From: Escherichia coli
GTDB lineage: Bacteria; Pseudomonadota; Gammaproteobacteria; Enterobacterales; Enterobacteriaceae
DNA: 64,000 nucleotides
Assembly: GCF_024298765.1 (NCBI RefSeq)
Contig: NZ_CP101210.1
Strand: one strand, 5' to 3'
Numbering within the stretch: the first letter of the stretch is position 1; every line of letters begins with the position of its first letter. The notes under the pieces were generated by a model. The model saw nothing but the letters and a program-made list of their open reading frames with translations, was not told the origin of the DNA and did no database searches. The position numbers and the translations under genes were made by a program. Positions 2,461 through 34,238 of the stretch are shown piece after piece.

Positions 2461-3055
2461 CCGTGAAATCCGTTGTTACAGCGGTGAGGTGCGTGCTGAG
2501 CGGCATGACGATAACCCGGCGCACATTATCGGTTATGGATCGGTGTTTGACTGTCGTTCTGAGCTGATATTCGGTTCATTCCGCGAAATCATCCGGCCCG
2601 GCGCTTTTGACGATGTGCTTGGTGATGATGTACGCGCACTGTTTAACCACGATCCTAATTTTATTCTTGGGCGTAGTGCAGCAGGCACGCTGAATCTTTC
2701 AGTTGATGAGCGCGGATTACGCTATGACATCCAGGCTCCGGAGACACAGACCATTCGTGATCTGGTGCTGGCCCCGATGCAACGTGGAGATATTAACCAG
2801 TCATCTTTCGCTTTCCGTGTCGCCCGTGACGGTGAGGAGTGGTATCAGGATGAGGACGGGGTTGTTATTCGCGAGATAACCCGCTTTTCCCGTCTGCTGG
2901 ATGTCAGTCCTGTGACATATCCTGCCTATCAGGAGGCTGACTCGGCTGTTCGCTCCATGAAAGCATGGCAGGAGGCGCGCAACAGTGGCGCGCTACAGAA
3001 AGCCATTAATCAACGTATGGCGCGTGAACGCGTCCTGACCCTTCTTAACGCGTAA
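2453..3055 (+). CDS. Prohead maturation protease (HK97 family)
   Basis: ATG at 2453 (MNDREIR...) overlapping the portal stop; position between portal and major capsid. Confidence 0.8.
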   Translation: MNDREIRCYSGEVRAERHDDNPAHIIGYGSVFDCRSELIFGSFREIIRPGAFDDVLGDDVRALFNHDPNFILGRSAAGTLNLSVDERGLRYDIQAPETQTIRDLVLAPMQRGDINQSSFAFRVARDGEEWYQDEDGVVIREITRFSRLLDVSPVTYPAYQEADSAVRSMKAWQEARNSGALQKAINQRMARERVLTLLNA

Positions 3056-3065
3056 AGGAAACATC

Positions 3066-4295
3066 ATGAAACTGCATGAACTGAAACAGAAACGTAATAC
3101 TATCGCAACTGACATGCGCGCCCTGAATGAAAAAATTGGTGATAACGCATGGACGGAAGAGCAGCGCACTGAGTGGAACAAAGCAAAATCCGAACTGGAA
3201 GCGCTTGATGAACGAATTGCACGCGAAGAAGAACTGCGTCGTCAGGATCAGGCGTACATTGAAAGCAATGAGGAAGAGCAGCGTCAGAATCTTGATCCGG
3301 AAAACAATCCGCAACAGGATGAGAAACGAGCTCAGGTTTTTGATAAGTGGATGCGTCACGGTGCCAGTGAGCTGACATCAGAAGAACGAAAGGCGTTGCG
3401 TGAACTTCGTGCCCAGGGTGTAGCTCAGGATGAAAAGGGCGGATATACCGTACCAGAAACATTCCTGGCGAAAGTTGTTGAGAAGATGAAATCCTACGGT
3501 GGCATCGCCAGTGTGGCGCAGATTCTGACCACTTCTGACGGTCGCACTATGGAGTGGGCAACAGCTGATGGTACTTCCGAAGTTGGTGTTCTGCTGGGCG
3601 AAAATGAAGAAGCCGGTGAAGAAGACACCGATTTCGGTATGGGAAGTCTTGGGGCGCTCAAAATGACATCGAAAATCATTCGTGTGTCTAATGAGTTGCT
3701 GCAGGACAGCGCGATCGATATGGAAGCTTATCTTGCCCGTCGCATTGCTGAACGTATTGGTCGTGGTGAAGCCCGTTATCTGATTCAGGGAACTGGTGCT
3801 GGTACGCCTAAACAACCCAAAGGGCTGGTCGCATCTGTGACCGGCACAACACAGACTGCCGCGGCAAATACGGTGAAGTGGCAGGAAATTCTGGCTCTGA
3901 AACACAGCATTGATCCTGCATATCGTCGCGGGCCGAAATTCCGCCTGGCGTTTAACGATAATACGCTGAAACTGATCAGTGAGATGGAAGACGGTCAGGG
4001 ACGCCCTTTATGGTTGCCGGATATTGTTGGTGTGGCACCTGCTTCAGTGTTGAATGTACCGTATGTCATTGATCAGGAAATTGATGATATCGGGGCGGGT
4101 AAAAAATTCATGTTCTGTGGTGACTTTGATCGCTTCATTATCCGTCGTGTGCGATACATGATTCTTAAACGTCTGGTTGAGCGTTACGCGGAATATGATC
4201 AGACTGGTTTTCTGGCCTTCCATCGTTTTGACTGTATCCTGGAAGACACCTCTGCCATTAAAGCGCTGGTGGGGAAAGGTAGCGTTGGTGGTTGA
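3066..4295 (+). CDS. Major capsid protein (HK97 fold, with charged N-terminal delta/scaffold domain)
   Basis: 409 aa; N-terminal ~100 residues highly charged and coiled-coil-like (EEQRTEWNKAKSELEALDERIAREEELRRQ), followed by capsid-like body; follows protease. Confidence 0.85.
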   Translation: MKLHELKQKRNTIATDMRALNEKIGDNAWTEEQRTEWNKAKSELEALDERIAREEELRRQDQAYIESNEEEQRQNLDPENNPQQDEKRAQVFDKWMRHGASELTSEERKALRELRAQGVAQDEKGGYTVPETFLAKVVEKMKSYGGIASVAQILTTSDGRTMEWATADGTSEVGVLLGENEEAGEEDTDFGMGSLGALKMTSKIIRVSNELLQDSAIDMEAYLARRIAERIGRGEARYLIQGTGAGTPKQPKGLVASVTGTTQTAAANTVKWQEILALKHSIDPAYRRGPKFRLAFNDNTLKLISEMEDGQGRPLWLPDIVGVAPASVLNVPYVIDQEIDDIGAGKKFMFCGDFDRFIIRRVRYMILKRLVERYAEYDQTGFLAFHRFDCILEDTSAIKALVGKGSVGG

Positions 4296-4320: not shown

Positions 4321-4363
4321 GCCGCGTAATGCGGTTTTTTTGTGCCCGCGTTCTGGCGGGCAC
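4321..4363 (+). terminator. Stem-loops with T-run after the capsid gene (putative partial terminator)
   Basis: CCGCGTAATGCGG followed by TTTTTTT, then perfect 8-bp stem GTGCCCGC-loop-GCGGGCAC immediately before the RBS of the next gene. Confidence 0.35.
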
Positions 4364-4373
4364 AGGAGGTTTT

Positions 4374-6150: not shown

Positions 6151-6321
6151 ATGTTTGTGAAACCTGTTAAAGGGCGGTCAGTTCCTGACCCTGCCCGCGG
6201 TGACCTTTTGCCCGCCGAGGGGCGAAATGTTGATGAGAACAACTACTGGCTGCGCCGTGAAGCAGCGGGTGATATCCGGCGCGTGAATGAAAAGGTGAAT
6301 ACCGATGACGATAAGCTTTAA
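6151..6321 (+). CDS. Small conserved phage protein upstream of tail sheath (56 aa)
   Basis: ATG at 6151, translation MFVKPVKGRSVPDPARGDLLPAEGRNVDENNYWLRREAAGDIRRVNEKVNTDDDKL; overlaps sheath start; not in ORF track (under 60 aa). Confidence 0.4.
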   Translation: MFVKPVKGRSVPDPARGDLLPAEGRNVDENNYWLRREAAGDIRRVNEKVNTDDDKL

Positions 6322-7801
6322 CACCATTCCGTCGAATACGCTGGTTCCGATTTTTTATGCGGAAATGGATAACCAGGCGGCGAATACTGCACAGGACAGC
6401 GGAGCATCGCTGCTGATTGGTCATGCCAATAACGGTGCAGAGATTGTTGCCAACAGTCTGGTGCTGATGCCATCGGCAGACTATGCACGCCAGATTTGTG
6501 GTGCGGGAAGTCAGCTGGCGCGTATGGTCGAGGCTTATCGCCAGACCGACCCGTTTGGTGAACTGTATGTGATTGCCGTTCCTGAATCCACGGGCGCGGC
6601 GGCAACAGTTACGCTGACGGTGACCGGCGCGGCAACCGAAACCGGCACGGTGAATGTTTATGTGGGACGTACCCGCGTGCAGGCTCCGGTGACCAACGGC
6701 GATAACGTCACGACGATTGCCAGCAGTATCCAGGATGCCATCAATGCCGTTCCGGCCCTGCCGTTTACGGCTTCATCTTCGGCAGGCGTGGTCACACTGA
6801 CCGCGCGTCATAAGGGGCTTTGCGGGAATGAAATTCCTGTCAGCCTCAATTACTACGGCTTTGGTGGGGGCGAAGTGCTGCCAGCGGGCGTACAGATTGC
6901 CGTGGCGACGGGGACCGCCGGTACGGGTGCTCCGGTTCTCACCGGCGCGGTGGCTGCAATGGCGGATGAGCCGTTTGATTATATCGGCCTGCCGTTCAAC
7001 GACACGGCCTCCGTTAACACGCTGGTGACCGAGATGAACGATACCAGCGGTCGCTGGAGCTATGCGCGTCAGCTGTATGGTCATGTGTATACGGCAAAGA
7101 TCGGCACGCTGTCAGAACTGGTGACCGCAGGTGACCAGTTTAACCAGCAGCACATTACCCTGGCGGGATACGAAAAAGAGACCCAGACGCCTGCCGACGA
7201 GCTGGCGGCAAGCCGTACCGCCCGCGCAGCGGTGTTTATTCGCAACGATCCGGCACGTCCCACGCAGACCGGTGAGCTGGTGGGTATGCTGCCTGCGCCG
7301 AAGGGGAAACGGTTCACGATGACTGAACAACAGACCCTGCTGTCTCATGGCGTGGCAACGGCGTATGTCGAAAGTGGGGTGCTGCGCATTCAGCGTGATG
7401 TCACCACGTACAGGAAAAACGCTTACGGTGTTGCGGATAACAGCTACCTCGACAGCGAGACGCTGCATACCAGTGCGTATGTACTGCGCAAACTGAAATC
7501 CGTCATTACCAGTAAGTACGGGCGTCACAAGCTTGCCAGCGACGGTACCCGCTTTGGTCCCGGTCAGGCGATTGTCACCCCGGCGGTGATCAAAGGGGAA
7601 CTGCTGGCAACCTACCGTCAGCTTGAGCGTGCGGGGATCGTGGAAAACTACGAACTGTTCAAGCAGTACCTGGTTGTGGAGCGTGATGCCAGCGATCCGA
7701 ACCGCCTGAACACGCTGTTCCCGCCTGACTATGTTAACCAGTTGCGTGTCTTTGCCGTGGTTAACCAGTTCCGTCTTCAGTATTCAGAGGAGTCTGCATA
7801 A
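6305..7801 (+). CDS. Tail sheath protein (contractile tail, Mu-like)
   Basis: 498 aa; followed by tube, chaperone with frameshift, and tape measure in the canonical myovirus order. Confidence 0.85.
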   Translation: MTISFNTIPSNTLVPIFYAEMDNQAANTAQDSGASLLIGHANNGAEIVANSLVLMPSADYARQICGAGSQLARMVEAYRQTDPFGELYVIAVPESTGAAATVTLTVTGAATETGTVNVYVGRTRVQAPVTNGDNVTTIASSIQDAINAVPALPFTASSSAGVVTLTARHKGLCGNEIPVSLNYYGFGGGEVLPAGVQIAVATGTAGTGAPVLTGAVAAMADEPFDYIGLPFNDTASVNTLVTEMNDTSGRWSYARQLYGHVYTAKIGTLSELVTAGDQFNQQHITLAGYEKETQTPADELAASRTARAAVFIRNDPARPTQTGELVGMLPAPKGKRFTMTEQQTLLSHGVATAYVESGVLRIQRDVTTYRKNAYGVADNSYLDSETLHTSAYVLRKLKSVITSKYGRHKLASDGTRFGPGQAIVTPAVIKGELLATYRQLERAGIVENYELFKQYLVVERDASDPNRLNTLFPPDYVNQLRVFAVVNQFRLQYSEESA

Positions 7802-8157
7802 TGGCCCGTATCGGGGGAACCTGTTATTTCAAAATTGACGGTCAGCAGCTATCGCTGACCGGCGGCATTGAGGTGCCCATGAACAGGATGGTTAATGATG
7901 ACATCATCGGCCTGGACGGTTCAGTGGACCGCAAGGAAACTCACCGTGCGCCTTATGTCAAAGGGACCTTCAAGGTGCCGAAGAATTTTCCGGTGGGCAA
8001 AATCACCTCGTCTGATGAGATGACAATCACTGCCGAGCTGGCGAACGGTCAGGTCTATGTACTGTCGTCTGCTTGGCTGCACGGCGAAGCGAACCATAAT
8101 GCCGAAGAAGGCACGGTCGATCTTGAGTTCCACGGTGAAGAAGGGGATTACCAGTAA
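7801..8157 (+). CDS. Tail tube protein
   Basis: 118 aa directly after sheath, start overlapping sheath stop (TAATG). Confidence 0.8.
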   Translation: MARIGGTCYFKIDGQQLSLTGGIEVPMNRMVNDDIIGLDGSVDRKETHRAPYVKGTFKVPKNFPVGKITSSDEMTITAELANGQVYVLSSAWLHGEANHNAEEGTVDLEFHGEEGDYQ

Positions 8158-8426: not shown

Positions 8427-8575
8427 CGGCTGAATACCTTACTGATCGCTTCTTTGATTGCGCCAGCTACTGGCGCATTAATCCTTTCGAATTGCTGAAT
8501 ATGCCGATCAGTGAAATTCCCTTGCTGGTCAGTCAGGCAAACAGGATAGAGCAGGAGAAACGCACACATGGCTGA
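8393..8575 (+). CDS. -1 frame extension of tail assembly chaperone (programmed frameshift product, long form 8157..8575)
   Basis: ORF in the -1 frame overlaps the chaperone 3' end; slippery heptamer T_TTT_TTC at 8408..8414; extension ends overlapping the tape measure start. Confidence 0.5.
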   Translation: MACGWFFPPGLTAEYLTDRFFDCASYWRINPFELLNMPISEIPLLVSQANRIEQEKRTHG

Positions 8576-10403
8576 ATTTGAGCTTAAGGCGTTGATCACC
8601 GGTGTCGACAGGCTTTCTCCCGCGCTGTCGAAAATGCAAAAGAAAATACGGGGATTTAAACGCCAGGCGGAAGAAGCGTCACAGGGTGGGCTGGCGCTTT
8701 GTGGCGGACTGGCAGCGGGTCTGACGCTTTCCCTGAAATCTTATGCCGATCAGGAAAACGCCGCCACCGGGCTGAAAGTCGCCATGATGGATGCGAATGG
8801 CGAGGTTGGAAAGCGCTTTCAGGACATCAATAAACTGGCTATTGGCCTGGGTAACCAGCTTCCCGGTACAACGGCTGATTTCCAGAACATGATGCAGATG
8901 CTGGTGCGTCAGGGGATCCCGGCAGAAAACATTCTTGGCGGTGTGGGTAAAGCGACAGCTTATCTTGCGGTACAACTGAAAAAAACACCGGAAGCGGCTG
9001 CTGAGTTTGCTGCAAAGATGCAGGATGCTACCGGAACGGCGTCAGAAGACATGATGGGGCTGTTCGACACTATCCAGAAGGCGTTTTATCTGGGCGTTGA
9101 CGATACCAACATGTTGTCCTTCTTCACTAAAACCAGTTCTGTTCTGAAGATGGTGAACAAGGACGGTCTTCAGGCTGCACAGAGCCTTGCCCCCATCAGC
9201 GTCATGATGGATCAGATGGGGATGAACGGGGAGTCGGCAGGTAATGCCCTGCGAAAAGTTATCCAGTCCGGATTAAGCGTTAAGAAAATCAGGGACGTCA
9301 ATAAAATCATGGCCCGCCAGAAACTCGGGGTACAGCTCGATTTTACTGACGGCAAAGGAAGTTTTGGCGGTCTTGATAACATGTTCAGGCAACTGGCAAA
9401 GCTGCGAAAACTGACCGACGTTAAGCGAACAGGTGTACTTAAGGCAATATTTGGTGATGATGCCGAAACCCTTCAGGTGGTCAATGCACTAATCGATAAA
9501 GGAAAGGATGGCTACGATCAGATCCAGCAGAAGATGAATAAACAGGCCAGCCTGAATAAACGTGTTCAGGCCCAGCTTGGTACGCTGTCCAACCTGTGGG
9601 AGGCAATGACGGGGACCGCAACTAACGGCCTTGCGGCTATTGGCGGCGCATTTTCTGGTGACGCCAAAAATATCACGCAATGGCTGGGGGAGTTGGGGGA
9701 AAAATTCACGAAGTTTGCGGATGAAAATCCCCGGGTTATTCGCGGCGTCGTCGGGCTTGCTGCCGGTCTTGCGATTCTGAAACTGGGATTGATGGGCGTT
9801 GGCAGTGCCATCAGTATTGTCAGCAGGCTCATGTCGATGACGCCGATTGGCATGATTGCGACGGCGATAGCCCTGGCTGCGGGATTAATTATCACTAACT
9901 GGGATGTTGTCGGACCTTATTTTAAGAAACTCTGGGAAACCATTGGTCCTTATTTTGAGACTGGCTGGGAACTCCTTAAGAAAGTTTTTGCCTGGTCGCC
10001 GCTGGGGATGGTGATCAATAACTGGGGGCCGGTTGTTAAGTGGTTTCAGGATATGTGGGACAAGCTGAAGCCAATTATTGAGTGGTTTACCGACAGTTCC
10101 GGTGACACGGTCGATGCCATTAACTCGGCGCAGTGGGGGGCGGGTGCTTATGATGCTTATGGGACGGGAATACCGGCACGGGGATACACACCTTATCCGG
10201 CGGTAGATCCGGCTCAGTCAAACAACGCCTCCGATGCCACAGGCCCGAATCCCTTCATGATTAACAAAGCTTCTGCGCCAAAAGTTGATGGTGAGATCAA
10301 GGTCTCTTTTGTGAATTCGCCTCCGGGTATGCGGGTTATGGAAACGCGATCCAGCGGTTTTGATGTCAGCCATGATGTTGGCTATACGCGCTTTGGCAGG
10401 TAA
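8568..10403 (+). CDS. Tail tape measure protein
   Basis: 611 aa, helix-rich with hydrophobic segment near C-terminus; follows chaperone pair. Confidence 0.85.
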   Translation: MAEFELKALITGVDRLSPALSKMQKKIRGFKRQAEEASQGGLALCGGLAAGLTLSLKSYADQENAATGLKVAMMDANGEVGKRFQDINKLAIGLGNQLPGTTADFQNMMQMLVRQGIPAENILGGVGKATAYLAVQLKKTPEAAAEFAAKMQDATGTASEDMMGLFDTIQKAFYLGVDDTNMLSFFTKTSSVLKMVNKDGLQAAQSLAPISVMMDQMGMNGESAGNALRKVIQSGLSVKKIRDVNKIMARQKLGVQLDFTDGKGSFGGLDNMFRQLAKLRKLTDVKRTGVLKAIFGDDAETLQVVNALIDKGKDGYDQIQQKMNKQASLNKRVQAQLGTLSNLWEAMTGTATNGLAAIGGAFSGDAKNITQWLGELGEKFTKFADENPRVIRGVVGLAAGLAILKLGLMGVGSAISIVSRLMSMTPIGMIATAIALAAGLIITNWDVVGPYFKKLWETIGPYFETGWELLKKVFAWSPLGMVINNWGPVVKWFQDMWDKLKPIIEWFTDSSGDTVDAINSAQWGAGAYDAYGTGIPARGYTPYPAVDPAQSNNASDATGPNPFMINKASAPKVDGEIKVSFVNSPPGMRVMETRSSGFDVSHDVGYTRFGR

Positions 10404-10427
10404 TGAAAAATTAATCTGTTAATGAGT

Positions 10428-10448
10428 CCCACTCCGGTGGGATTTTTT
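10428..10448 (+). terminator. Short hairpin plus T-run between tape measure and baseplate genes (putative attenuating terminator)
   Basis: CCCAC-TCCG-GTGGG followed by ATTTTTTAT. Confidence 0.3.
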
Positions 10449-10463
10449 ATGTACGGAGTTTAT

Positions 10464-11792
10464 ATGACGTGGAAAGACAGACTTCAGGACGCGTCATTTC
10501 GCGGTGTGCCGTTTAAGGTTGAAGAAGAAAGTGCGGGAACCGGTCGTCGTGTGGAAACGCACGAATACCCGAACCGCGACAAACCCTATACCGAAGACCT
10601 GGGGAAAATCACTTTCCGCCCGTCCATCACAGCTTATGTGGTGGGAGATGACTGCTTTGACCAGCGCGATCGCCTGATTGACGCGCTGAATAAACCCGGT
10701 CCCGGCACGCTTGTCCATCCGACTTACGGTGAGCTGAAAGTCTGTGTTGACGGGGAAGTTCGGGTCAGCACATCGAAGAGTGAAGGGCGTATTGTCCGCT
10801 TTGACCTGAAGTTTGTCGAAGCGGGAGAACTCTCTTACCCCACTTCAGGTGCGGCGACGGCGCAGACGCTGATGTCATCCTGTTCTGCACTGGATGACTG
10901 CATCAGTGACAGCTTCAGTGGTTTCAGTATCGATGGCGTGGCAGATTTTGTGCAGAACGACGTCGTCGGTAATGCCGGCACAATGCTGGGGTATGTTTCT
11001 GATGCGATGAAAGTGGTGGATTCTGCCGTATCGGATGCCGCCAGGCTGTTGCAGGGGGATATCTCGGTACTTCTGCCGCCGCCATCGTCAGGCAAAAATT
11101 TCGTTGAGCAGGTGCAGAAAATGTGGCGTACCGGGAAACGCCTTTATGGTAACGCCAGCGACCTGGTCACCATGATCAAAACGCTTTCCGGTGTCAGCCT
11201 CGGCAGCGATCTGCAACCGCGCGGTGTCTGGAAAACGGACAGTAAAACCACCGCCACGGCGACGCAGCAGCGTAACGTGGTTGCCAGCATCCTTCGTACG
11301 ACCGCAATCAGCGAAGCGGCGTATGCCGTCACCCGATTGCCTGCGCCAACAACTTCCGCGGTGATGCAGAATGCCGCAGTGGGGCAGGCAACAACACCCG
11401 CGCAGAGCACTGGCTGGCCTTCCGTCACGCATCCGGCACTGAACAATGCACCGGCGGTGAAAAACACGGTTGACCTGCCGACGTGGGAAGAACTGACTGA
11501 CATTCGCGACACACTGAATACGGCAATTGATAAGGAGTTGTCCCGTACAACCAGTGATGCGCTGTTTCTGGCGCTGCGCCGGGTGAAAGCAGATCTGAAT
11601 GCGGATATCAACACGCGCCTTGAACAGTCTGCACGGATCATTCAGCGCACGCCGGATGAGGTTTTACCCGCGCTGGTGCTGGCGGCGACCTGGTTTGATA
11701 ACGCGGCGCGTGACGCGGACATTATCCGGCGTAATGCCATTACACATCCCGGCTTTGTGCCGGTGATCCCTCTGAAGGTGCCAGTGCAATGA
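10464..11792 (+). CDS. DNA circulation protein (Mu gp43-like)
   Basis: N-terminus MTWKDRLQDASFRGVPFKVEEE resembles the Mu gp43 family; ATG at 10464 chosen over ORF-track start 10422. Confidence 0.7.
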   Translation: MTWKDRLQDASFRGVPFKVEEESAGTGRRVETHEYPNRDKPYTEDLGKITFRPSITAYVVGDDCFDQRDRLIDALNKPGPGTLVHPTYGELKVCVDGEVRVSTSKSEGRIVRFDLKFVEAGELSYPTSGAATAQTLMSSCSALDDCISDSFSGFSIDGVADFVQNDVVGNAGTMLGYVSDAMKVVDSAVSDAARLLQGDISVLLPPPSSGKNFVEQVQKMWRTGKRLYGNASDLVTMIKTLSGVSLGSDLQPRGVWKTDSKTTATATQQRNVVASILRTTAISEAAYAVTRLPAPTTSAVMQNAAVGQATTPAQSTGWPSVTHPALNNAPAVKNTVDLPTWEELTDIRDTLNTAIDKELSRTTSDALFLALRRVKADLNADINTRLEQSARIIQRTPDEVLPALVLAATWFDNAARDADIIRRNAITHPGFVPVIPLKVPVQ

Positions 11793-12868
11793 ACGACAAT
11801 GTCACGCTACGGGTAAATGGCCGGGAGTGGAATGGCTGGACATCGGTGCGCATCGGTGCCGGTATTGAACGGCTGGCGCGGGATTTCAGTGTGGAGATCA
11901 CTCGCCAGTGGCCGGGAGATGAGGGTATCACCACGCTTCAGCCGCGCATTAAAAACGGTTCAAAAGTGGAAGTGCTGATTGGTGATGAGCTGGTGATCAC
12001 CGGCTGGGTGGAGGCGACTCCCGTTCGTTACGATGCCCGTTCGGTCAGCACCGGTATTGCCGGACGTAGTCTGACGGCTGACCTGATTGACTGTGCAGCC
12101 GAACCGACACAGTTTAACGGACGCTCGCTGGTGCAGATTGCGCAGGCGCTTGCTGCGCCTTTCGGCATTGAGGTGGTGAACAGCGGTGCGCCGTCGGGTG
12201 TTATTCCTGATGTTCAGCCTGATCACGGTGAAACGGTGATTGAGGTGATCAACAAAATACTCGGTCAGCAGCAGGCGCTGGCTTACGACGACCCGCACGG
12301 CAGGCTGGTGATTGGCGGTATTGGCTCAACGCGGGCACATACCGCGCTGGTACTTGGGGAAAACATCCTTTCCTGTGATACGGAGAAGAGTATCCGGGAG
12401 CGGTTTTCTGTTTACCAGGTGGCGGGGCAGCGTGCCGGAAACGACGATGATTTCGGTGAGGCCACCACCACCGCGCTGCGGGCACGCACAGAGGACGCAT
12501 TTATTGCCCGTTACCGTCCGATGTATATCAGGCAGACAGGGCAGGCCACGGGGGCAGGTTGTATTGCGCGTGCTGACTTTGAAGCCCGACAACGGGCGGC
12601 GCGGACGGATGAAACCACCTATGTGGTGCAGGGCTGGCGACAGGGTAACGGTACGCTGTGGCAGCCCAACCAGCGGGTGATTGTCTTCGATCCGGTCTGT
12701 GGTTTCGACAATACCGAACTGCTTGTCTCGGAAGTCACGTTTACTCAGGACCAGAACGGCACCCTGACGGAAATCCGTGTCGGCCCACCTGATGCTTATC
12801 TGCCTGAACCCGAAGCCCCCGGCGCGCGGAAAAAGAAAAAAGCCAGAGTACAGGAGGACCCGTTCTGA
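11789..12868 (+). CDS. Baseplate hub protein (Mu gp44 / P-like)
   Basis: 359 aa; order after DNA circulation protein as in Mu-type tails. Confidence 0.7.
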   Translation: MNDNVTLRVNGREWNGWTSVRIGAGIERLARDFSVEITRQWPGDEGITTLQPRIKNGSKVEVLIGDELVITGWVEATPVRYDARSVSTGIAGRSLTADLIDCAAEPTQFNGRSLVQIAQALAAPFGIEVVNSGAPSGVIPDVQPDHGETVIEVINKILGQQQALAYDDPHGRLVIGGIGSTRAHTALVLGENILSCDTEKSIRERFSVYQVAGQRAGNDDDFGEATTTALRARTEDAFIARYRPMYIRQTGQATGAGCIARADFEARQRAARTDETTYVVQGWRQGNGTLWQPNQRVIVFDPVCGFDNTELLVSEVTFTQDQNGTLTEIRVGPPDAYLPEPEAPGARKKKKARVQEDPF

Positions 12869-16118: not shown

Positions 16119-16538
16119 ATGGATAGATACTTCTATTCACAAAAAGAAAATGGTTTTTTTACCGATTTAAATAAAGCACCTTCAGATGCTGTTGAGATAA
16201 CCACGGATGAATGGCTGTTACTACTGGATGGTCAGGATAATGGCATGAAAATAGTCAGCAATCAGGAGGGATATCCGGTTTTGACAGAGCAACCACCTTT
16301 ATCAAAAGAAAACCTTATTGCATTGGCGGATTTGAAAAAAAGAAAACTTATTAATGAAGCCAACGAGCACATGAACAGCAGACAATGGCCAGGTAAAGCG
16401 GCGATTGGTCGCCTGAAAGGTGAGGAACTGGCGCAATATAATTTGTGGCTGGATTATCTGGACGCACTGGAACTGGTCGATACTTCCGGTGCGCCAGATA
16501 TTGAATGGCCTACGCCTCCGGCAGTTCAGGCCAGATGA
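16119..16538 (+). CDS. Tail fibre assembly protein (expressed orientation)
   Basis: 139 aa directly after the fibre gene; AT-rich like the expressed fibre C-terminus. Confidence 0.75.
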   Translation: MDRYFYSQKENGFFTDLNKAPSDAVEITTDEWLLLLDGQDNGMKIVSNQEGYPVLTEQPPLSKENLIALADLKKRKLINEANEHMNSRQWPGKAAIGRLKGEELAQYNLWLDYLDALELVDTSGAPDIEWPTPPAVQAR

Positions 16539-17115
16539 CGTCCGGCGCGGTGCTGGTATCTGTTGCCGTCACCGCGTCAATGTAATCCAGCACAGCGTTA
16601 AGTCGGGTGTTTTCTGTCTGCATCAGCTTCCGCCCGGCCTGCAATTTCAGTTGAATCAGACTAATGGAAGCCATTGCAGTATCAATCAGTGACTGACGCT
16701 GTGCTTCTGCCGCGTCTACTGCGGCGCTATGCTGTGCCTCAGTATCGGTCACCCATTTCTCACCATCCCATTTATCGTATGGCGTTAATGGGGCGATAGT
16801 GGTTGTATTTTCAGGGTAATCACCCGGAACTGTGATTTCTTTGGTATCTCCCGTTTCGGTACTATAGACAACTTCACCGCGATGGTCTGGCACATATTCC
16901 CATGAATTTAAATCTACAGAGCGACAGATTGCATAACCAGCTTTATGTGTACCTGGTGCATCCAAACAGGAACATGCCGGGATACCGACGCCGACAGCGA
17001 GATATTCAGTTGATGTAGAAATATATTCCCGCGTTTCACCATCATAATTATAAACGGTAATATCTCCCGCTTTTATGGCAATGAGTTCGCTATTTAATAC
17101 AGCTTTATTCATCAT
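16510..17115 (-). CDS. Tail fibre assembly protein (alternative, expressed after inversion)
   Basis: 201 aa on opposite strand, converging on and overlapping the 3' end of the other assembly gene. Confidence 0.75.
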   Translation of the reverse strand: MMNKAVLNSELIAIKAGDITVYNYDGETREYISTSTEYLAVGVGIPACSCLDAPGTHKAGYAICRSVDLNSWEYVPDHRGEVVYSTETGDTKEITVPGDYPENTTTIAPLTPYDKWDGEKWVTDTEAQHSAAVDAAEAQRQSLIDTAMASISLIQLKLQAGRKLMQTENTRLNAVLDYIDAVTATDTSTAPDVIWPELPEA

Positions 17116-17632
17116 GCGGCCCTCACAATATAATTAAAAGCGATGTTACGAGGACGAGTTTCTGTACCTACATTTTCACTAATTTCACCATAACGTTTAA
17201 CACTACGAGAGCTAATAGCTCGTAGTGAGGAAGGCACCTTAAGACCGGGTTCGTCCGTTTTAACTATTCCCCCGTCACCGTATGTAGCCAGTATTCCTGG
17301 GTTTACTCCTTCCCGTGCACTTCCTGCGGCGAGTCCGTCCCCTGTCCATAATTCCATATAGTGTGCATGGTCCAAAATTGTGTGTGGCTGCCAATTAAGC
17401 AAAGCGCGACCAGTATCAATCCCGCGACCGTCATCCCAGCCACGAATAAATTCACCGCGTAAATCAGGCAATTTATTGGTCGGGTAAGCCTTTGCCAGTT
17501 CCGGGTATTCTTCAGCAGAAAAAGCCGCACCGTTGCATTTCAGCCAGCCTGTTGGCGGAGTGGCGGAAGGCCACGGAACAGGCACACCAACGGGTAATGC
17601 CGAACCTTCTCCCAAACCAACGTTTATGAAAA
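17112..17632 (-). CDS. Alternative tail-fibre variable C-terminal segment (silent in this orientation)
   Basis: Minus-strand ORF 17112..17660 reads through the right crossover site; contains the conserved fibre motif PWPSATPPTGWLKCNGAAF...YPELAKAYP; would fuse to the constant N-terminus on inversion. Confidence 0.65.
17607..17632. repeat. Invertase crossover site (right), gix/pix-like 26-bp site
   Basis: TTCTCCCAAACCAACGTTTATGAAAA, about 55 bp upstream of the invertase start. Confidence 0.6.
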
Positions 17633-17686
17633 TGCAGAAATAACGAGCAAATGGCATCATTCCTGCTTTTGTCAGGGAGATCTACC

Positions 17687-18241
17687 ATGCTTATTGGCTA
17701 TGTACGTGTGTCAACAAATGACCAGAACACAGATCTACAGCGTAATGCGCTGAACTGTGCAGGATGCGAGCTGATTTTTGAAGACAAGATAAGCGGTACA
17801 AAGTCTGAAAGGCCGGGACTGAAAAAACTGCTCAGGACATTATCGGAAGGTGACACTCTGGTTGTCTGGAAGCTGGATCGGCTGGGGCGTAGTATGCGGC
17901 ATCTGGTCATTCTGGTTGAGGAGTTGCGCGAACGTGGCGTTAATTTTCGCAGCCTGACGGATGCTATTGATACCAGCACACCGATGGGGCGTTTTTTCTT
18001 TCATGTGATGGGTGCCCTAGCTGAAATGGAACGAGAACTGATTGTTGAACGAACAAAAGCTGGACTGGAAGCTGCTCGCGCACAGGGACGAATTGGTGGA
18101 CGTCGTCCCAAACTTACACCAGAACAATGGGCGCAGGCTGGGCGATTAATTGCATCAGGCGTTCCTCGCCAGAAGGTGGCGATCATCTATGATGTTGGTA
18201 TATCGACACTGTATAAGAAGTTTTCGGTCGGAGATAAATGA
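17687..18241 (+). CDS. pin: Serine DNA invertase, Pin/Gin/Cin family
   Basis: MLIGYVRVSTNDQ active-site serine motif at N-terminus, C-terminal HTH; very close to e14 PinE as recalled; ATG at 17687 inside ORF-track 17651..18241. Confidence 0.9.
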   Translation: MLIGYVRVSTNDQNTDLQRNALNCAGCELIFEDKISGTKSERPGLKKLLRTLSEGDTLVVWKLDRLGRSMRHLVILVEELRERGVNFRSLTDAIDTSTPMGRFFFHVMGALAEMERELIVERTKAGLEAARAQGRIGGRRPKLTPEQWAQAGRLIASGVPRQKVAIIYDVGISTLYKKFSVGDK

Positions 18242-18298: not shown

Positions 18299-19117
<819 letters not shown>

Positions 19118-19478
19118 TCATTGCAAGGGCTCACAACCAGTAGTGTTGAGAAAACCATCGGAGAAATGAGGCTAAGCCTTTGAATTTACATAGTACAAAA
19201 AAGATACTTTTCCTCATAATGTGAGCTAATTTTATGTTTCGTTTGATGATTGGACCGGTCTCGAAAACCGTAGACACATAGTATGCGTTAATTTATGAAC
19301 AAACTACTTGTCTGCTGTTTTTCTGTCATTAGTCGTATATAGAATGATTCTCTATGCCTAACAAAGCATCACCAGTGCTAGATTACGTTGTAGTCACTGT
19401 TTAAATATCCAGATAAAACATTTCCTTCTGGGTTGAATGAGTGATAAAGTTTCACCCATTAGACCCCTTGGAGGAATT

Positions 19479-20912
19479 ATGTCTGAATTTGAAGTGTTGG
19501 CACAGCATCTGCTGAAGGAAGCCGAGGCGGAAGAAAAGCTGCGACAGGAAAATGATAAAAAGCTTATCGAGAAAGTGCTGGAAATCTATGATCAGAAGTA
19601 TGTGGCTGAATTACTGAGAAAAGTCGGAAAAAATGAGTGGAGCCGTGAAACCATTAACCGCTGGATTAATGGCAAGTGTTTACCAAAATCGTTGACTTCA
19701 GTAGAAGAGTCTCTTCTGCGTAAGATGCTACCAGAACCACCTGCAAACCATCCGGAATATGCTTTCCGCTTCATTGACTTATTTGCTGGAATTGGAGGGA
19801 TACGGAAAGGTTTTGAGGCCATTGGAGGCCAGTGTGTTTTTACCAGTGAATGGAATAAAGATGCTGTGCGTACATACAAGGCCAACTGGTTTAACGATGA
19901 ACAGGTGCATAAATTCAATCTCGATATTCGGGAAGTCACGCTGAGTGATAAAACCGATGTATTGGAAACGGATGCTTATGCATATATTGATGAGCATGTG
20001 CCGGATCATGATGTGCTTCTTGCGGGGTTCCCGTGCCAGCCATTTAGCCTTGCTGGTGTTAGTAAGAAAAACTCACTTGGTCGTGCGCATGGTTTTGAAT
20101 GTGAAGCACAAGGAACACTTTTTTTTGACGTGGCACGTATTATACGAGCAAAAAAACCGGCAATTTTTGTGCTGGAAAATGTCAAAAATCTGAAGAGCCA
20201 TGATAAGGGTAAAACTTTCAAAGTCATTATGGAGACCCTTGACGAGCTGGGCTACGAAGTTGCCGATGCTGCAGAAATGGGAAAAAACGATCCAAAGATT
20301 ATCGATGGGAAGCATTTTTTGCCTCAGCATCGTGAACGCATTGTTCTGGTCGGATTTAGACGAGATCTGAATATTCACAAGGGGTTTACCTTGCGTGATA
20401 TCAGTCGTTTTTATCCGGAACACCGCCCATCATTTGGTGAATTGCTGGAGCCTGTAGTCGACAGTAAATATATACTTACGCCAAAACTATGGGAGTACCT
20501 TTATAACTACGCCAAAAAGCATGCAGCCAAGGGGAATGGTTTTGGCTTTGGGTTGGTCAATCCTGAGAATAAGGAAAGCATTGCACGCACACTTTCTGCC
20601 AGATATCACAAAGACGGATCAGAAATTCTTATTGATCGTGGTTGGGATATGGCAACGGGAGAGGCTGACTTTATGAATGAGAGTAATCAGGCTCGTCGAC
20701 CACGCAGGCTGACTCCCCGAGAGTGCGCACGCCTTATGGGATTTGAAAAACCTGGAGGGAAACCATTCCGTATTCCGGTTTCAGATACTCAGTCATATCG
20801 GCAGTTCGGTAACTCAGTTGTGGTGCCAGTATTTGAAGCTGTTGCCAGACTTCTGGAACCCTATATCCTCAAAGCTGTTTCTGCTGATGCTGGTAAGACT
20901 GGGCAGCCTTGA
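19479..20912 (+). CDS. ecoRIIM: DNA cytosine-5 methyltransferase, M.EcoRII/Dcm type (predicted CCWGG)
   Basis: C5-MTase motifs [10 protein letters not shown] (I), [11 protein letters not shown] (IV), ENVKNL (VI), [10 protein letters not shown] (X); N-terminus [12 protein letters not shown] resembles M.EcoRII; 477 aa from ATG at 19479 with GGAGG RBS. Confidence 0.9.
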
Positions 20913-20918
20913 GAACAT

Positions 20919-20941
20919 CTCCCGGCCTTTTAAGCCGGGAG
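20919..20941. terminator. Bidirectional hairpin between convergent methyltransferase and endonuclease genes
   Basis: CTCCCGGC-CTTTTAA-GCCGGGAG, 8-bp stem, located in the 34-bp gap between the two stop codons. Confidence 0.5.
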
Positions 20942-20946
20942 TCAGC

Positions 20947-22161
20947 CTATGATAGTTCAGCGTAAAGCTCTATCAGCTCAGTAATGAATGCTCCGAGCGT
21001 TATTAATTCTTCTCTAACTGCTTCTGGGTATTTTTTATGTAAAGTTGATGGTACAACGAGTCTGACACCCGCATCTTTCATTTCTCGGTATTGTGCTGAA
21101 GAAACACCTTCTTGCAGTGTAAATAAATGTACCTGATGGATTTTATCTGCTTCATTCAGTATCTGACGCCAGCGATCTTTGCAGGTGGTCTTTACTGCCA
21201 GCATACGTAAGTTTTCTACAGGAAATTCAACGTTATGATATGCCTCTGCTGAAGGAAACAGGAAATCTGGTTTTTTATTACCTTCAGTAACTGCCTGAGT
21301 GGAGAAATGCCGTAGTCCGTGCTCGATAAAAAGCTTCTCTAGGTGAAGTTCAAGTGATTTGCCTGCCCTTGATTTACGTCGATTACTGACAGAGTTGGCT
21401 AATGCAATAAACTCATCTACAGAATCGAATCCTTTCTTAATAATATCAAGAACATGTAATTCCTCGACGAGTAGAAAAATATCATACTCGACACGCCGAC
21501 GGTCAATCAGTTGCTCATCTGGATCCTTGGAGTTTTTAGCATAATGGCCAGCAGCATATTGAATAATTTCGTTTCCAGAAGGAAAACGCTTCTTCCAGTC
21601 TTCAGGAATAACATATTTATGATTTACTGGAGTTTGCTGAAGAGACAATCCGCCCAAAATTTGTCCGGCAGGGCCGGAAATTAGGGTTCCAGGTATGATT
21701 TCGCCAATAGCAGACTCGATGATATCCTCTTCATCGGGATTGACGCAGACCCATATATCTACCTCGGAACAGTCAGTGTTCTGTTCGTTTAACCTGAAAG
21801 CAAGAATTGTGAGGGCTCCTGTATTTTCAGGGTTCTGTAATGGACTTCCTCTCCCCCAGCGCGTAATTCTTTTTTCGTTTCGGGTCTTACCAAAATAACG
21901 GTTGTTGTAATAAATTGCGCGTGCTTGGGTATCAGGGCAATCATGGGATGATACATGCGCAGTAAGGAAGACTGAAGGGTTCAGTTCGCGAGTATGATTG
22001 ATAGATGGAAAAAGCTTTTCAACGATATTTGAGGGGATATAAAGTCCGACCTGATGGCCACCTGTTGCGCCTGTGTCGTTTGCAGAAAGGCGTTTGATGT
22101 AGATAAAGTAATTCCCGCTTGCGATATCAAGCAGCCAGTTATGAAAAACCGACATATACAT
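20947..22161 (-). CDS. ecoRIIR: Type IIE restriction endonuclease, EcoRII-like
   Basis: 404 aa, same length as EcoRII; N-terminus MSVFHNWLLDIASGNYFIYIKRLSANDTGATGGHQVGLYIP closely matches EcoRII as recalled; convergent with the methyltransferase. Confidence 0.9.
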   Translation of the reverse strand: MYMSVFHNWLLDIASGNYFIYIKRLSANDTGATGGHQVGLYIPSNIVEKLFPSINHTRELNPSVFLTAHVSSHDCPDTQARAIYYNNRYFGKTRNEKRITRWGRGSPLQNPENTGALTILAFRLNEQNTDCSEVDIWVCVNPDEEDIIESAIGEIIPGTLISGPAGQILGGLSLQQTPVNHKYVIPEDWKKRFPSGNEIIQYAAGHYAKNSKDPDEQLIDRRRVEYDIFLLVEELHVLDIIKKGFDSVDEFIALANSVSNRRKSRAGKSLELHLEKLFIEHGLRHFSTQAVTEGNKKPDFLFPSAEAYHNVEFPVENLRMLAVKTTCKDRWRQILNEADKIHQVHLFTLQEGVSSAQYREMKDAGVRLVVPSTLHKKYPEAVREELITLGAFITELIELYAELS

Positions 22162-22389: not shown

Positions 22390-22752
22390 TGGTGGAGCTG
22401 GCGGGAGTTGAACCCGCGTCCGAAATTCCTACATCCTCGGTACTACATGCTTAGTCAGTCTTTACATTCGCTTGCCAGCTGCGGACGGACACGCCACTAA
22501 CAAACTAGCCTGATTAAGTTTTAACGCTTCAACCCCAGGCAGGGCTTCCACGCGATCTCTTTTGGGTTTGACCTCTCTTGATCCCCGTCCTAAGAGCGGA
22601 GGCTAGGGAGAGAGGGCTCTAAGCAGGTTATTAAGCTGCTAAAGCGTAGTTTTCGTCGTTTGCGACTATTTTTTGCGGCTTTTTACGAGGCCAACCGCCC
22701 CTCGGCATGCACCTTGGGTTTCGCAAATCCCGTCGAATCCAGAATCAGCCCC
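22390..22752 (-). ncRNA. ssrA: tmRNA (SsrA), 363 nt
   Basis: Reverse complement matches E. coli tmRNA from GGGGCUGAUUCUGGAUUCGACGGG to CCAGCUCCACCA; tag reading frame encodes ANDENYALAA. Confidence 0.95.
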
Positions 22753-34162: not shown

Positions 34163-34238
34163 GATTTCGCTTAAGCGACATCCTGTTAAGAAGGGCTGGC
34201 CAATTGGCTGGCCCTTTTTTTGTCTGTTTGCTCGTGTT

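What the first reader, a model, noticed from the sequence alone, without database searches (positions are those of the whole stretch)
10428..10448. Terminator-like hairpin inside the tail operon between tape measure and baseplate genes
A short GC stem (CCCAC/GTGGG) followed by a T-run lies in the 60-bp gap after the tape measure stop. A partial terminator here could reduce baseplate gene expression relative to sheath and tube. The stem is short, so the effect may be weak.
Basis: seen in the sequence. Interest (0 to 1): 0.2.

Follow-up and report, generated by a model that had tools for sequence, protein, structure and literature searches.

The report
Terminator hairpin closing a prophage cargo slot
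The hairpin is a real, conserved transcription-terminator-type signal between the tape measure and baseplate genes of a common E. coli/Shigella prophage; it marks the edge of a slot where related phages carry extra "moron" genes, it is already annotated in phage SfII, and it is ordinary rather than surprising.

Summary
CCCAC/UCCG/GUGGG plus six T lies at 10428-10448, in the 60-nt gap between the tape measure stop (10403) and the start of the DNA-circulation gene N (ATG 10464). The stem extends to 9 pairs (-13.5 kcal/mol). By a terminator score it ranks 9th of 1081 T-run sites in the window.

The window is an SfI/SfII/SfV-type lambdoid prophage with a Mu-like tail. The identical site is already annotated "putative rho-independent terminator" in the SfII GenBank record.

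Across about 110 related loci, a + strand hairpin plus T-run sits 12-13 nt before N's ribosome-binding site in two kinds of allele: every empty-gap allele of 51-63 nt, and every allele with a + strand inserted gene. The inserted genes belong to at least 7 low-GC families. Two stem pairs covary. The hairpin is absent where the cargo is inverted, in SfIV and in Mu, so tail expression does not need it.

Relatives carry a Q antiterminator upstream of one co-directional late operon. I therefore read the hairpin as the resident terminator that closes an accessory-gene slot, empty in this prophage. It would act on unmodified RNA polymerase and be read through during lytic growth. Interest is low.

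The parts
8568..10403 (+). Tail tape measure protein gene (611 aa), stop TAA 10401-10403 followed by in-frame TGA
   Evidence: ORF list. Pfam PhageMin_Tail, E = 6.8e-27. Annotated as tape measure in the SfI, SfII and E. coli records.
10404..10463 (+). 60-nt intergenic gap: the empty form of a variable accessory-gene (moron) slot
   Evidence: In relatives the same junction holds 421-1391 nt with low-GC cargo genes. The gap folds at -18.7 kcal/mol, z = -3.5.
10424..10445 (+). Hairpin: core stem 10427-10432 / 10437-10442 (UCCCAC/GUGGGA), extendable by three G-U/A-U pairs (10424-10426 with 10443-10445)
   Evidence: -13.5 kcal/mol extended; -10.1 kcal/mol for the 6-bp core. Covariation at two stem pairs in 16 alleles.
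10433..10436 (+). Tetraloop UCCG (UNCG class); UUCG, CUCG, UGCG and UUAG in relatives
   Evidence: Sequence; alignment A2.
10443..10448 (+). T-run of 6 (U-tract) directly after the stem
   Evidence: T columns 21-25 are invariant in all 16 aligned alleles.
10455..10458 (+). Shine-Dalgarno GGAG of gene N, 5 nt before the ATG
   Evidence: Sequence. GGAG is present in 15 of the 16 A2 alleles; L218 has GAAG.
10464..11792 (+). DNA circulation protein gene (Mu gp43/N homologue, 442 aa), first gene of the baseplate module; overlaps the GpP-like hub gene 11789-12868
   Evidence: Pfam DNA_circ_N, E = 6.9e-34, starting 6 aa after this ATG. PGAP uses this start. GpP domains in the next ORF.

Best explanation
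The element is a Rho-independent (intrinsic) terminator of the short GC stem + UNCG tetraloop + U6 design. It belongs to the backbone of SfV-like phages, which are lambdoid phages with Mu-like tails. It sits 12-13 nt upstream of the ribosome-binding site of gene N and forms the right-hand border of a hypervariable slot between the tape measure gene and N.

In relatives the slot holds horizontally acquired low-GC accessory genes (morons), most of them with signal-peptide-like or hydrophobic N-termini. In this prophage the slot is empty, so the terminator is an orphan.

**Inferred mechanism.**
- In the lysogen, RNA polymerase that started upstream without Q modification forms the hairpin at the U-tract and releases before entering the baseplate genes. 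Such polymerase would start at a cargo promoter in relatives, or at spurious promoters here.
- After induction, Q-modified polymerase from the late promoter reads through, so the baseplate genes are expressed.

**Shown:** the sequence, its stability, its positional conservation, the covariation, its association with the cargo slot, and its dispensability in some relatives.

**Inferred:** actual termination, read-through by Q-modified polymerase, and whether the empty allele is a deletion derivative or the ancestral state.
For: **Hairpin and U-tract.**. It ranks 9th of 1081 candidate sites in the window, among obvious host gene-end terminators.

**Prior annotation.** The identical 116-nt upstream region is present in SfII. 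There GenBank annotates 11928..11966 as a putative rho-independent terminator.

**Census of about 110 loci.**
- A + strand hairpin with T6-7 is present in all empty alleles with 51-63 nt gaps. These fall in three backbones: the window type (n = 39), L230/L233 and L218.
- It is present in all alleles with + strand cargo of 83-189 aa and GC 0.31-0.47, against 0.52 for the tail genes.
- In one clade the same hairpin, AACCCGC-UUCG-GCGGG-U7, follows at least 5 different cargo genes. It therefore lies on the backbone side of the swap boundary.

**Covariation.** One pair is G-C in 10 alleles and A-U in 6, never broken. The basal pair is A-U in 10, G-C in 3 and U-A in 2. Overall 84.7% of cells are paired, against 34-53% in the slid controls.

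**Other alleles.** Some alleles use unrelated hairpins at the same place: GCCACCU/AGGUGGC, CCCGCCA.../UGGCGGG and CCGCG/CGCGG.

**Generic design.** The near-identical 21-mer CCCACTTCGGTGGGCTTTTTT occurs in more than 120 unrelated viral contigs. Of the 80 examined, 79% are intergenic, against 19% of random positions, typically about 20 nt after a co-oriented stop codon. This hairpin design is therefore used generally as a gene-end signal.

**Cargo identity.** Two cargo families fall in the PHROG 'moron' category, one of them Sie-like superinfection exclusion.

**Q antiterminator.** A Q gene lies upstream of a single co-directional late operon in SfII and in an E. coli O157:H7 prophage whose 401-nt junction is 100% identical to the window.

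**Literature.**
- Morons carry their own promoter and terminator.
- The first moron described lies in a tail operon next to the tape measure gene (PMC3594210).
- Lambdoid late operons are switched on by Q antitermination (PMC2629481, PMC3851460).
Against: - There are no transcript data for this site, so termination and read-through are both inferred.
- The window does not include the Q gene or the late promoter. It starts inside the terminase gene.
- With no cargo gene and no promoter-like site just upstream, there is no obvious transcript for the terminator to stop. It may be functionally idle.
- The basal pair next to the U-tract is U-A rather than the G-C seen in the commonest version, so it may be a weak terminator.
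- Consensus promoter scans of the cargo cassettes were not enriched. There was one 9/12 match in L024 and none in L005 or L047. The 'independent transcription unit' part of the moron model is therefore only weakly supported.
- Persistence of the hairpin in three independent empty alleles could instead mean it has a function of its own in the late transcript.
Confidence: 0.6

Rival explanations
1. The hairpin is a partial terminator (attenuator) that works during lytic growth. It lowers transcription of the baseplate and fibre genes relative to the sheath, tube and tape measure genes upstream, helping to set virion protein stoichiometry.
For: - It is a genuine terminator-type hairpin inside a long co-directional operon.
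- It is retained in three independent empty-slot alleles, where there is no cargo gene to terminate.
- A second terminator-like hairpin pair follows the high-copy major capsid gene at 4321-4369. Intra-operon hairpins after structural genes may therefore be a theme in this phage.
- The weak basal U-A pair would suit a leaky terminator.
Against: - A Q antiterminator is present in complete relatives. Q-modified polymerase reads through intrinsic terminators (PMC3851460, PMC2629481).
- There is no + strand terminator at this junction in the inverted-cargo alleles, SfIV or Mu, which have homologous tail genes.
- The site follows the low-copy tape measure gene, not the tube gene.
- In most relatives it follows a foreign inserted gene.
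Confidence: 0.15
2. The hairpin acts post-transcriptionally rather than as a terminator. It could be a 3' protective stem-loop that stabilises the upstream sheath-tube-tape measure mRNA segment after processing. Alternatively it could be a 5' structure plus U-rich enhancer that sets the translation efficiency or stability of the N message.
For: - The distance between the hairpin plus U-run and the SD of N is fixed at 12-13 nt in all alleles, including those with unrelated hairpin sequences.
- U-rich tracts upstream of an SD can enhance initiation (general knowledge, not tested here).
- The minimum-free-energy fold of the gap pairs UCUGU (10415-10419) with ACGGA (10453-10457), which overlaps the SD.
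Against: - The invariant U-tract directly abutting a GC stem is the signature of an intrinsic terminator.
- The candidate SD-sequestering helix has no conserved partner. The sequences upstream of the hairpin are unrelated between alleles, and the 3' partner varies: GTACG, ATCCG or GCCCG.
- Inverted-cargo alleles, SfIV and Mu translate N without any such element.
- The fixed spacing is explained just as well by shared descent of the right flank.
Confidence: 0.1
3. The hairpin is a chance feature or a misread piece of coding sequence. Gene N would start at ATG 10422, as annotated in the SfII and SfV-era records, and the stem would simply be codons.
For: - ORF listing gives 10422 as the first ATG of the ORF.
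- The SfII record annotates that start.
- The stretch is in frame and of equal length in EPP-1.
Against: - There is no SD before 10422, but a GGAG lies 5 nt before ATG 10464.
- PGAP starts N at the equivalent of 10464.
- EPP-1 and the SKA5-type alleles have no ATG upstream.
- The Pfam domain starts 6 aa after 10464.
- Compensatory stem changes and unrelated hairpins at the same site are not what coding constraint would produce.
- z-scores are -3.5 to -3.9.
Confidence: 0.03

Closest known systems
Putative rho-independent terminator annotated in Shigella phage SfII (GenBank KC736978, 11928..11966)
   Same: It is the same site. The 116 nt upstream of N are identical to the window, and the feature covers the hairpin and T-run between SfII_16 (tape measure) and SfII_17.
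   Different: It is a software prediction only and was not tested. The SfIV paper from the same group names a terminator-finding program for its own genome (PMC3851460); the SfII announcement does not say how the SfII terminators were predicted. The SfII record also starts SfII_17 at the upstream ATG, so the terminator overlaps its CDS. That start is probably wrong.
Moron elements of lambdoid phages, e.g. HK97 gene 15 in the tail operon next to the tape measure gene (Juhala et al. 2000; Cumby et al. 2012; PMC3594210)
   Same: Relatives carry an extra gene of deviant GC content inside a tail operon, adjacent to the tape measure gene and ended by its own terminator. The cargo proteins mostly have signal-peptide-like or hydrophobic N-termini, and one family is Sie-like.
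   Different: The window itself has no extra gene, only the terminator. The slot lies after the tape measure gene, not before it. Cargo promoters are not convincingly predicted. Expression from the prophage was not tested.
'ant moron' variable region in the late operon of P22-like phages (PMC2629481)
   Same: It is a single position in an otherwise syntenic late operon with many alternative gene sets. There were ten types in sixteen genomes there; here there are at least 7 cargo families plus empty alleles in about 110 loci.
   Different: The position differs (before the tailspike gene there), as do the cargo genes and the phage morphotype.
Lambda-type Q antitermination of the late operon (tR' and downstream terminators)
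   Same: A Q gene lies upstream of one long co-directional late operon in complete relatives. An intrinsic terminator inside such an operon is expected to be bypassed.
   Different: The Q proteins of SfII, SfIV and the O157 prophage differ from one another and from lambda Q (PMC3851460, PMC3772137). Their read-through of this terminator has not been measured. Q lies outside the window.
Phage Mu tail operon (Mup42-Mup43 junction)
   Same: The genes are homologous and in the same order: sheath, tube, chaperone, tape measure, N, P.
   Different: Mu has a 4-nt gap and no hairpin. Its late genes are activated by C-dependent promoters, not by Q (general knowledge).

Membership tests
Rho-independent (intrinsic) transcription terminator | GC-rich stem-loop of about 5-14 bp with a short loop | tested here: met
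   Six Watson-Crick pairs (5 G-C), extendable to 9, with a 4-nt UNCG loop. The energy is -10.1 kcal/mol for the core and -13.5 kcal/mol extended.
Rho-independent (intrinsic) transcription terminator | U-tract immediately 3' of the stem | tested here: met
   TTTTTT at 10443-10448, directly after A10442. The T columns are invariant in 16 alleles.
Rho-independent (intrinsic) transcription terminator | Non-coding position, co-oriented with and downstream of a gene end | tested here: met
   The core stem (from 10427) begins 23 nt after the tape measure stop codon, on the same strand. The true N start is at 10464. The minus strand has no T-run.
Rho-independent (intrinsic) transcription terminator | Structure rather than sequence conserved among relatives | tested here: met
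   Two pairs carry compensatory changes, and 84.7% of cells are paired against 34-53% in slid controls. Unrelated hairpins occupy the same site in other alleles. The changes probably reflect few independent events.
Rho-independent (intrinsic) transcription terminator | RNA 3' ends or polymerase release at the U-tract in vivo or in vitro | not testable with these tools
   No transcriptome or termination assay was available.
Moron (independently transcribed accessory cassette in a phage operon) | Extra gene absent from close relatives at the same position | tested here: not met
   The window's gap holds no ORF; it is the empty allele. Relatives do carry extra genes here.
Moron (independently transcribed accessory cassette in a phage operon) | Base composition different from the flanking phage genes | tested here: met
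   This holds for relatives only. Cargo GC is 0.31-0.47, against about 0.52 for the tape measure and N genes.
Moron (independently transcribed accessory cassette in a phage operon) | Own promoter upstream of the cargo gene | tested here: inconclusive
   The scan found one 9/12 match with an extended -10 in L024 and none in L005 or L047. Counts were not above the shuffles. By eye, TTGGCA-15 nt-TATAAT lies upstream of the bPH cargo in L047, with TTGGCA-15 nt-TATAAC in EPP-1.
Moron (independently transcribed accessory cassette in a phage operon) | Terminator at the 3' end of the cassette | tested here: met
   Every + strand cargo allele ends in a hairpin plus T-run. Inverted cargo (L054) has its hairpin at the opposite end, next to the tape measure stop.
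Q-antiterminated lambdoid late operon | Q-family antiterminator gene upstream of the lysis, head and tail genes, all on one strand | tested here: met
   This is seen in complete relatives: SfII_48 'antiterminator protein Q' and 'antitermination protein' in E. coli O157:H7 NE 1092-2, whose junction is 100% identical. It cannot be checked in the window, which begins inside the terminase gene.
Q-antiterminated lambdoid late operon | Read-through of internal terminators by Q-modified RNA polymerase | not testable with these tools
   This is inferred from the literature on lambdoid phages (PMC2629481, PMC3851460).
Known structured RNA family (riboswitch, leader, sRNA) | Match to a curated covariance model | tested here: not met
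   An Rfam gathering-threshold scan of 1-23000 found only tmRNA, at 22390-22752.

The most novel reading that the evidence does not exclude
The hairpin may be more than a passive gene-end signal. It could be a conserved backbone 'dock' that defines where accessory genes are swapped in SfV-like phages. The same short, generic terminator sequences recur in many unrelated phages (the CCCAC-UUCG-GUGGGC-U6 21-mer is in more than 120 viral contigs). They could serve as micro-homology anchors for cassette exchange. The retained terminator in empty alleles could insulate the baseplate genes in the lysogen, or slightly tune them in lytic growth despite Q.
Probability: 0.12. Interest if true: 0.4.

Novelty: already known. 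Interest (0 to 1): 0.15.

Why it matters
As a terminator prediction it adds little. The same site is already flagged in the SfII GenBank record, and intrinsic terminators inside Q-controlled late operons are textbook.

The useful by-products are practical:
- **A cargo slot.** The tape measure-N junction of this very common prophage family is an accessory-gene slot. The junction is present in 1091 of 5426 complete E. coli genomes. It holds at least 7 mostly uncharacterised families of cargo proteins, most with signal-peptide-like or hydrophobic N-termini, and one resembles superinfection-exclusion proteins. That makes it a good place to look for new prophage-encoded host-protection genes.
- **A start-codon correction.** The start codon of gene N in the older SfII-type annotations is probably 42 nt too far upstream.
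- **An unresolved small question.** If the terminator proved to act during lytic growth, it would be a small example of dosage control that escapes Q. Nothing here points that way.

Tried and rejected
1. **Hairpin inside the N coding sequence (start at ATG 10422).** Rejected on the SD position, the PGAP start, the Pfam domain start and the lack of an upstream ATG in relatives.

2. **Known RNA family.** The Rfam scan found nothing at the site.

3. **Repeated element (REP, IS end).** The sequence is unique in the window even with 3 mismatches allowed.

4. **Hairpin identity as proof that the window's element is the leftover terminator of the bPH-domain moron of L047 and EPP-1.** Weakened, because the same 21-mer is found in more than 120 unrelated viral contigs. 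It is a convergent design. Recombinant allele A' (L039) and the shared right flank still suggest relatedness, but the direction (deletion or insertion) cannot be resolved.

5. **SD-sequestering outer helix (10415-10419 with 10453-10457) from the minimum-free-energy fold.** It is not conserved, because the upstream partners are unrelated between alleles.

6. **Consensus promoter scans of the cargo cassettes.** Not enriched over shuffles.

7. **PADLOC search of eight cargo proteins.** No hits. Pfam named only bPH_1 and tRNA_anti-like among the six cargo proteins scanned, and IS200 TnpA for the insertion in L080.

8. **Ancestral Mu feature.** Rejected, because Mu has a 4-nt junction.

9. **The generic terminator pattern scan alone.** It is not discriminating: 21 hits against 15.1 ± 3.6 expected in 16 kb. 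A graded score was therefore used.

10. **Published comment on this terminator.** The SfII and SfIV papers do not discuss it.

Full report
**1. What is in the sequence**

- CCCAC at 10428-10432
- loop TCCG at 10433-10436
- GTGGG at 10437-10441
- A at 10442
- TTTTTT at 10443-10448

The stem is in fact longer than reported. T10427 pairs with A10442, and GAG at 10424-10426 can pair with the first three T of the run. That gives the 9-pair stem found by the pattern scan and by folding.

| Segment folded | Energy (kcal/mol) | z-score | Shuffles as stable |
|---|---|---|---|
| 25-nt hairpin | -13.5 | -3.9 | 0 of 200 |
| 6-pair core | -10.1 | -2.87 | 5 of 200 |
| whole 60-nt gap | -18.7 | -3.5 | 0 of 200 |

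The loop, UCCG closed by C-G, belongs to the very stable UNCG tetraloop class (general knowledge). On the opposite strand the hairpin is weaker (-8.8 kcal/mol) and no T-run follows it. The signal is therefore unidirectional and points the same way as the operon. The sequence is unique in the window even with three mismatches allowed, and no Rfam family matches it.

**2. Gene context**

Pfam assignments for the surrounding ORFs:

| ORF | Assignment |
|---|---|
| 6305-7801 | tail sheath |
| 7801-8157 | tail tube |
| 8568-10403 | tape measure protein (PhageMin_Tail) |
| ORF listed from 10422 | DNA_circ_N (Mu gp43/N) |
| 11789-12868 | Mu GpP-type baseplate hub |

The ORF list starts N at ATG 10422, which would put the hairpin inside the gene, and the SfII GenBank record uses that start. 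I reject it for four reasons:
- There is no Shine-Dalgarno sequence before 10422, whereas GGAG at 10455-10458 lies 5 nt before ATG 10464.
- NCBI's pipeline starts the protein at the equivalent of 10464 in E. coli genomes.
- The Pfam domain begins six residues after that ATG.
- Relatives such as EPP-1 and SKA5 have no ATG upstream.

**3. Is it more than chance?**

The built-in terminator pattern is too permissive to decide this. It gave 21 hits against 15.1 ± 3.6 expected in 16 kb. I therefore scored every T-run site on both strands of the 64-kb window with a d'Aubenton-Carafa-style function combining hairpin energy per length and a U-tract score.

The site ranks 9th of 1081. The eight above it are strong hairpins of the kind found at host gene ends (positions 34215, 22242, 40630, 63781 and others). 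It is the best-scoring site in the phage late region.

**4. What the window is, and prior knowledge**

The junction region is close to several serotype-converting Shigella phages, which combine lambdoid regulation with a Mu-like contractile tail:

| Phage | Identity to the junction region |
|---|---|
| SfI | 99% |
| SfII | 98% |
| SfV | 97% |

The 401-nt junction is present in 1091 of 5426 complete E. coli genomes, at 100% identity in several of them. The SfII GenBank record already annotates a "putative rho-independent terminator" at 11928..11966. That is exactly this site, and the 116 nt upstream of N are identical to the window. The SfIV paper from the same laboratory states that terminators were predicted with a terminator-finding program, and it does not discuss this one. 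The SfII announcement does not mention terminators.

**5. Comparative anatomy of the junction**

This was the informative part. I collected three sets of loci:
- 80 viral-contig loci whose N protein is at least 98% identical to the window's
- 39 loci related to the Edwardsiella phage EPP-1 N protein, at 63-95% identity
- several isolated phages

Although the tape measure and N genes are conserved, the stretch between them is hypervariable.

*Empty alleles.* These have gaps of 51-63 nt and occur in three backbones: the window type (39 loci), L230/L233 and L218.

*Cargo alleles.* These carry 421-1391 nt with an extra gene of 83-189 aa. The cargo GC content is 0.31-0.47, against about 0.52 for the tail genes. 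Clustering gives at least seven cargo protein families:
- a 176-aa protein with a hydrophobic N-terminal segment
- three different families with signal-peptide-like N-termini
- a membrane-flanked PH-domain-like protein
- a cytoplasmic bPH_1 protein
- an OB-fold protein on the opposite strand

PHROGs places two of these in its "moron" category, one as "superinfection exclusion Sie-like". PADLOC has no match. One allele also holds an IS200 copy.

This is the classic picture of a moron hotspot. It resembles HK97 gene 15, which sits next to the tape measure gene (PMC3594210), and the variable "ant moron" of P22-like late operons (PMC2629481).

**6. Where the hairpin stands in that picture**

Presence of a + strand GC hairpin followed by 6-7 T, 12-13 nt before the GGAG of N:

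| Allele type | + strand hairpin and T-run |
|---|---|
| Empty, 51-63 nt gap | present in every one |
| + strand cargo | present in every one |
| Inverted cargo (L054 type, L235) | absent |
| SfIV (24-nt gap) | absent |
| Mu (4-nt gap) | absent |

In L054, the inverted-cargo allele examined in detail, a hairpin lies at the other end of the cargo, next to the tape measure stop.

In the EPP-1-related clade the same hairpin, AACCCGC-UUCG-GCGGG-U7, follows at least five different cargo genes. The sequences diverge exactly at the 5' base of the stem. The hairpin therefore lies on the conserved (backbone) side of the exchange boundary. An empty allele (L230) and a cargo allele (L242) share the tape measure end, about 11 nt before the hairpin, the hairpin itself and the right flank.

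In the E. coli clade, some cargo types bring a different hairpin to the same spot: GCCACCU/AGGUGGC, CCCGCCA.../UGGCGGG and CCGCG/CGCGG.

In an alignment of 16 distinct alleles that share the register of the window's hairpin:
- One stem pair is G-C in ten alleles and A-U in six, and is never broken.
- The basal pair is A-U in ten, G-C in three and U-A in two, with one mismatch.
- 84.7% of cells are paired, against 34-53% when the partner is slid.
- RNAalifold independently predicts the same helix.

The number of independent substitution events is small, so the covariation is supportive rather than overwhelming. The recurrence of unrelated hairpins at the same position is the stronger argument that structure plus U-tract is what is selected.

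**7. A caution about homology**

The bPH-cargo alleles (L047 and EPP-1) end in GCCCAC-UUCG-GUGGGC-U6, almost the window's hairpin. A recombinant-looking allele (L039) has the window's left arm and the L047 right arm. It was tempting to call the window's hairpin the leftover terminator of a lost bPH moron.

A scan of viral contigs argues against leaning on that. The exact 21-mer CCCACTTCGGTGGGCTTTTTT occurs in more than 120 unrelated contigs. Of the 80 examined, 79% lie outside ORFs, against 19% of random positions, usually about 20 nt after a co-oriented stop codon.

This has two consequences:
- This hairpin design is a widely and convergently used gene-end signal, which supports its reading as a terminator.
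- Hairpin identity alone cannot establish common descent.

Whether the empty allele arose by deletion of cargo or is ancestral remains open.

**8. How it most likely works**

Complete relatives have a Q-family antiterminator gene upstream of a single co-directional block of lysis, head and tail genes. This is seen in SfII and in an O157:H7 prophage with an identical junction. Lambdoid late operons are switched on by Q, which lets RNA polymerase pass terminators (PMC2629481, PMC3851460).

No promoter-like site lies between the hairpin and the N start codon 16 nt downstream, and the next + strand match is at about 14.3 kb. SfI, SfII and SfV have been isolated as phages (records; titles). Polymerase must therefore pass this site efficiently during lytic growth.

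The best-supported model is that the hairpin terminates only unmodified polymerase. In relatives that means transcripts of the cargo gene expressed from the prophage. In this empty allele it means, at most, stray transcription. It is ignored by Q-modified polymerase. All of this is inference; no transcript data were available.

**9.

A dosage-setting attenuator is not excluded but is disfavoured, for four reasons:
- Q antitermination should override it.
- The element is dispensable in the inverted-cargo alleles, SfIV and Mu.
- It sits after the tape measure gene, itself a low-copy protein, rather than after the tube gene.
- It is systematically associated with foreign cargo genes.

In its favour, the hairpin persists in three independent empty alleles. 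A second pair of terminator-like hairpins follows the major capsid gene at 4321-4369.

A post-transcriptional role (3' stabiliser, or a translation element for N) is a further minor rival. The one candidate helix that would mask the SD is not conserved.

**10. Verdict**

This is a real intrinsic-terminator-type hairpin. It is conserved in position and structure, and it is already annotated in SfII. It is best understood as the resident terminator that closes an accessory-gene slot which happens to be empty in this prophage. It is ordinary biology of low interest. The slot and its uncharacterised cargo proteins are the more useful lead.

Noticed in passing
window 10404-10463 and the equivalent junction in L003-L005, L007-L086, L210-L248: The tape measure-N junction is a hypervariable accessory-gene slot. 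It holds at least 7 unrelated low-GC cargo protein families of 83-189 aa, most with signal-peptide-like or hydrophobic N-termini. One is a PHROG 'Sie-like superinfection exclusion' family and two are bacterial PH-domain types. Empty alleles and one IS200 insertion also occur. None of the cargo proteins matches PADLOC.
   Followed up: partly
window 4321-4369 (+): Two tandem terminator-like hairpins fill the gap after the major capsid gene (3066-4295): GCCGCG..GCGGT+T7, then GUGCCCGC..GCGGGCAC. They lie immediately before the AGGAGG/ATG of the head-tail connector gene. Together they fold at -30.3 kcal/mol, z = -4.4. This is a second intra-operon terminator or stabiliser candidate, not annotated in SfII.
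   Followed up: partly
window 10422 vs 10464; SfII KC736978 CDS SfII_17: The SfII record starts the DNA circulation protein 42 nt upstream (456 aa), overlapping its own annotated terminator. The SD position, the PGAP start and the domain start all indicate ATG 10464 (442 aa).
   Followed up: yes
Viral-contig loci L087-L166: The exact 21-mer CCCACTTCGGTGGGCTTTTTT, usually preceded by G and often by an A-run, recurs in more than 120 unrelated viral contigs. Of the 80 examined, 79% are intergenic, typically about 20 nt after a stop codon. It is a convergent 'off-the-shelf' UUCG-tetraloop terminator.
   Followed up: partly
L003 (Edwardsiella phage EPP-1) 2500-2580: Downstream of EPP-1's own tape measure stop lies a non-coding remnant resembling the 3' end of the E. 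coli-type tape measure gene (…AATCACGATGCAGAGCATACCAGTATTGGCAGATAA…). It includes TTGGCA-15 nt-TATAAC, matching TTGGCA-15 nt-TATAAT upstream of the same bPH cargo gene in L047. This suggests the cassette moved together with a flank that doubles as its promoter.
   Followed up: no
window 18299-22161: The prophage end carries three defence-type genes: a LEM-3-like GIY-YIG nuclease gene (18299-19072, -), a C5 cytosine methyltransferase (19437-20912, +) and an EcoRII-type restriction endonuclease (20947-22161, -). Together they form a complete EcoRII-like R-M system next to the phage tail-fibre region.
   Followed up: partly
window 22390-22752 (-): The tmRNA gene ssrA (Rfam, 295.8 bits) lies just beyond the R-M genes. 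The prophage or island probably sits at the ssrA attachment site.
   Followed up: no
window 16119-18241: A Pin/Resolvase-family invertase (17651-18241, +) lies next to oppositely oriented ORFs at 16510-17660 (-). From the annotation of a relative these look like alternative tail-fibre and assembly genes, suggesting an invertible host-range segment as in Mu G or e14 P.
   Followed up: no
L080 2267-2990: An IS200-family Y1 transposase copy is inserted between the 176-aa cargo gene and N. Its terminal hairpin (CCTCCGGC/GCCGGAGG) now occupies the place of the terminator, just before the SD of N.
   Followed up: no
L002 (SfIV) 2917-3000; L004 (vB_EcoM-720R4) 2932-3000: A second type of N 5' end exists. 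It has a 16-17-residue serine-rich N-terminal extension (MDLSSFPTRPSLLSSSSGW…) and is linked to a different tape measure gene. The mosaic breakpoint falls at about window 10476, just inside N.
   Followed up: no
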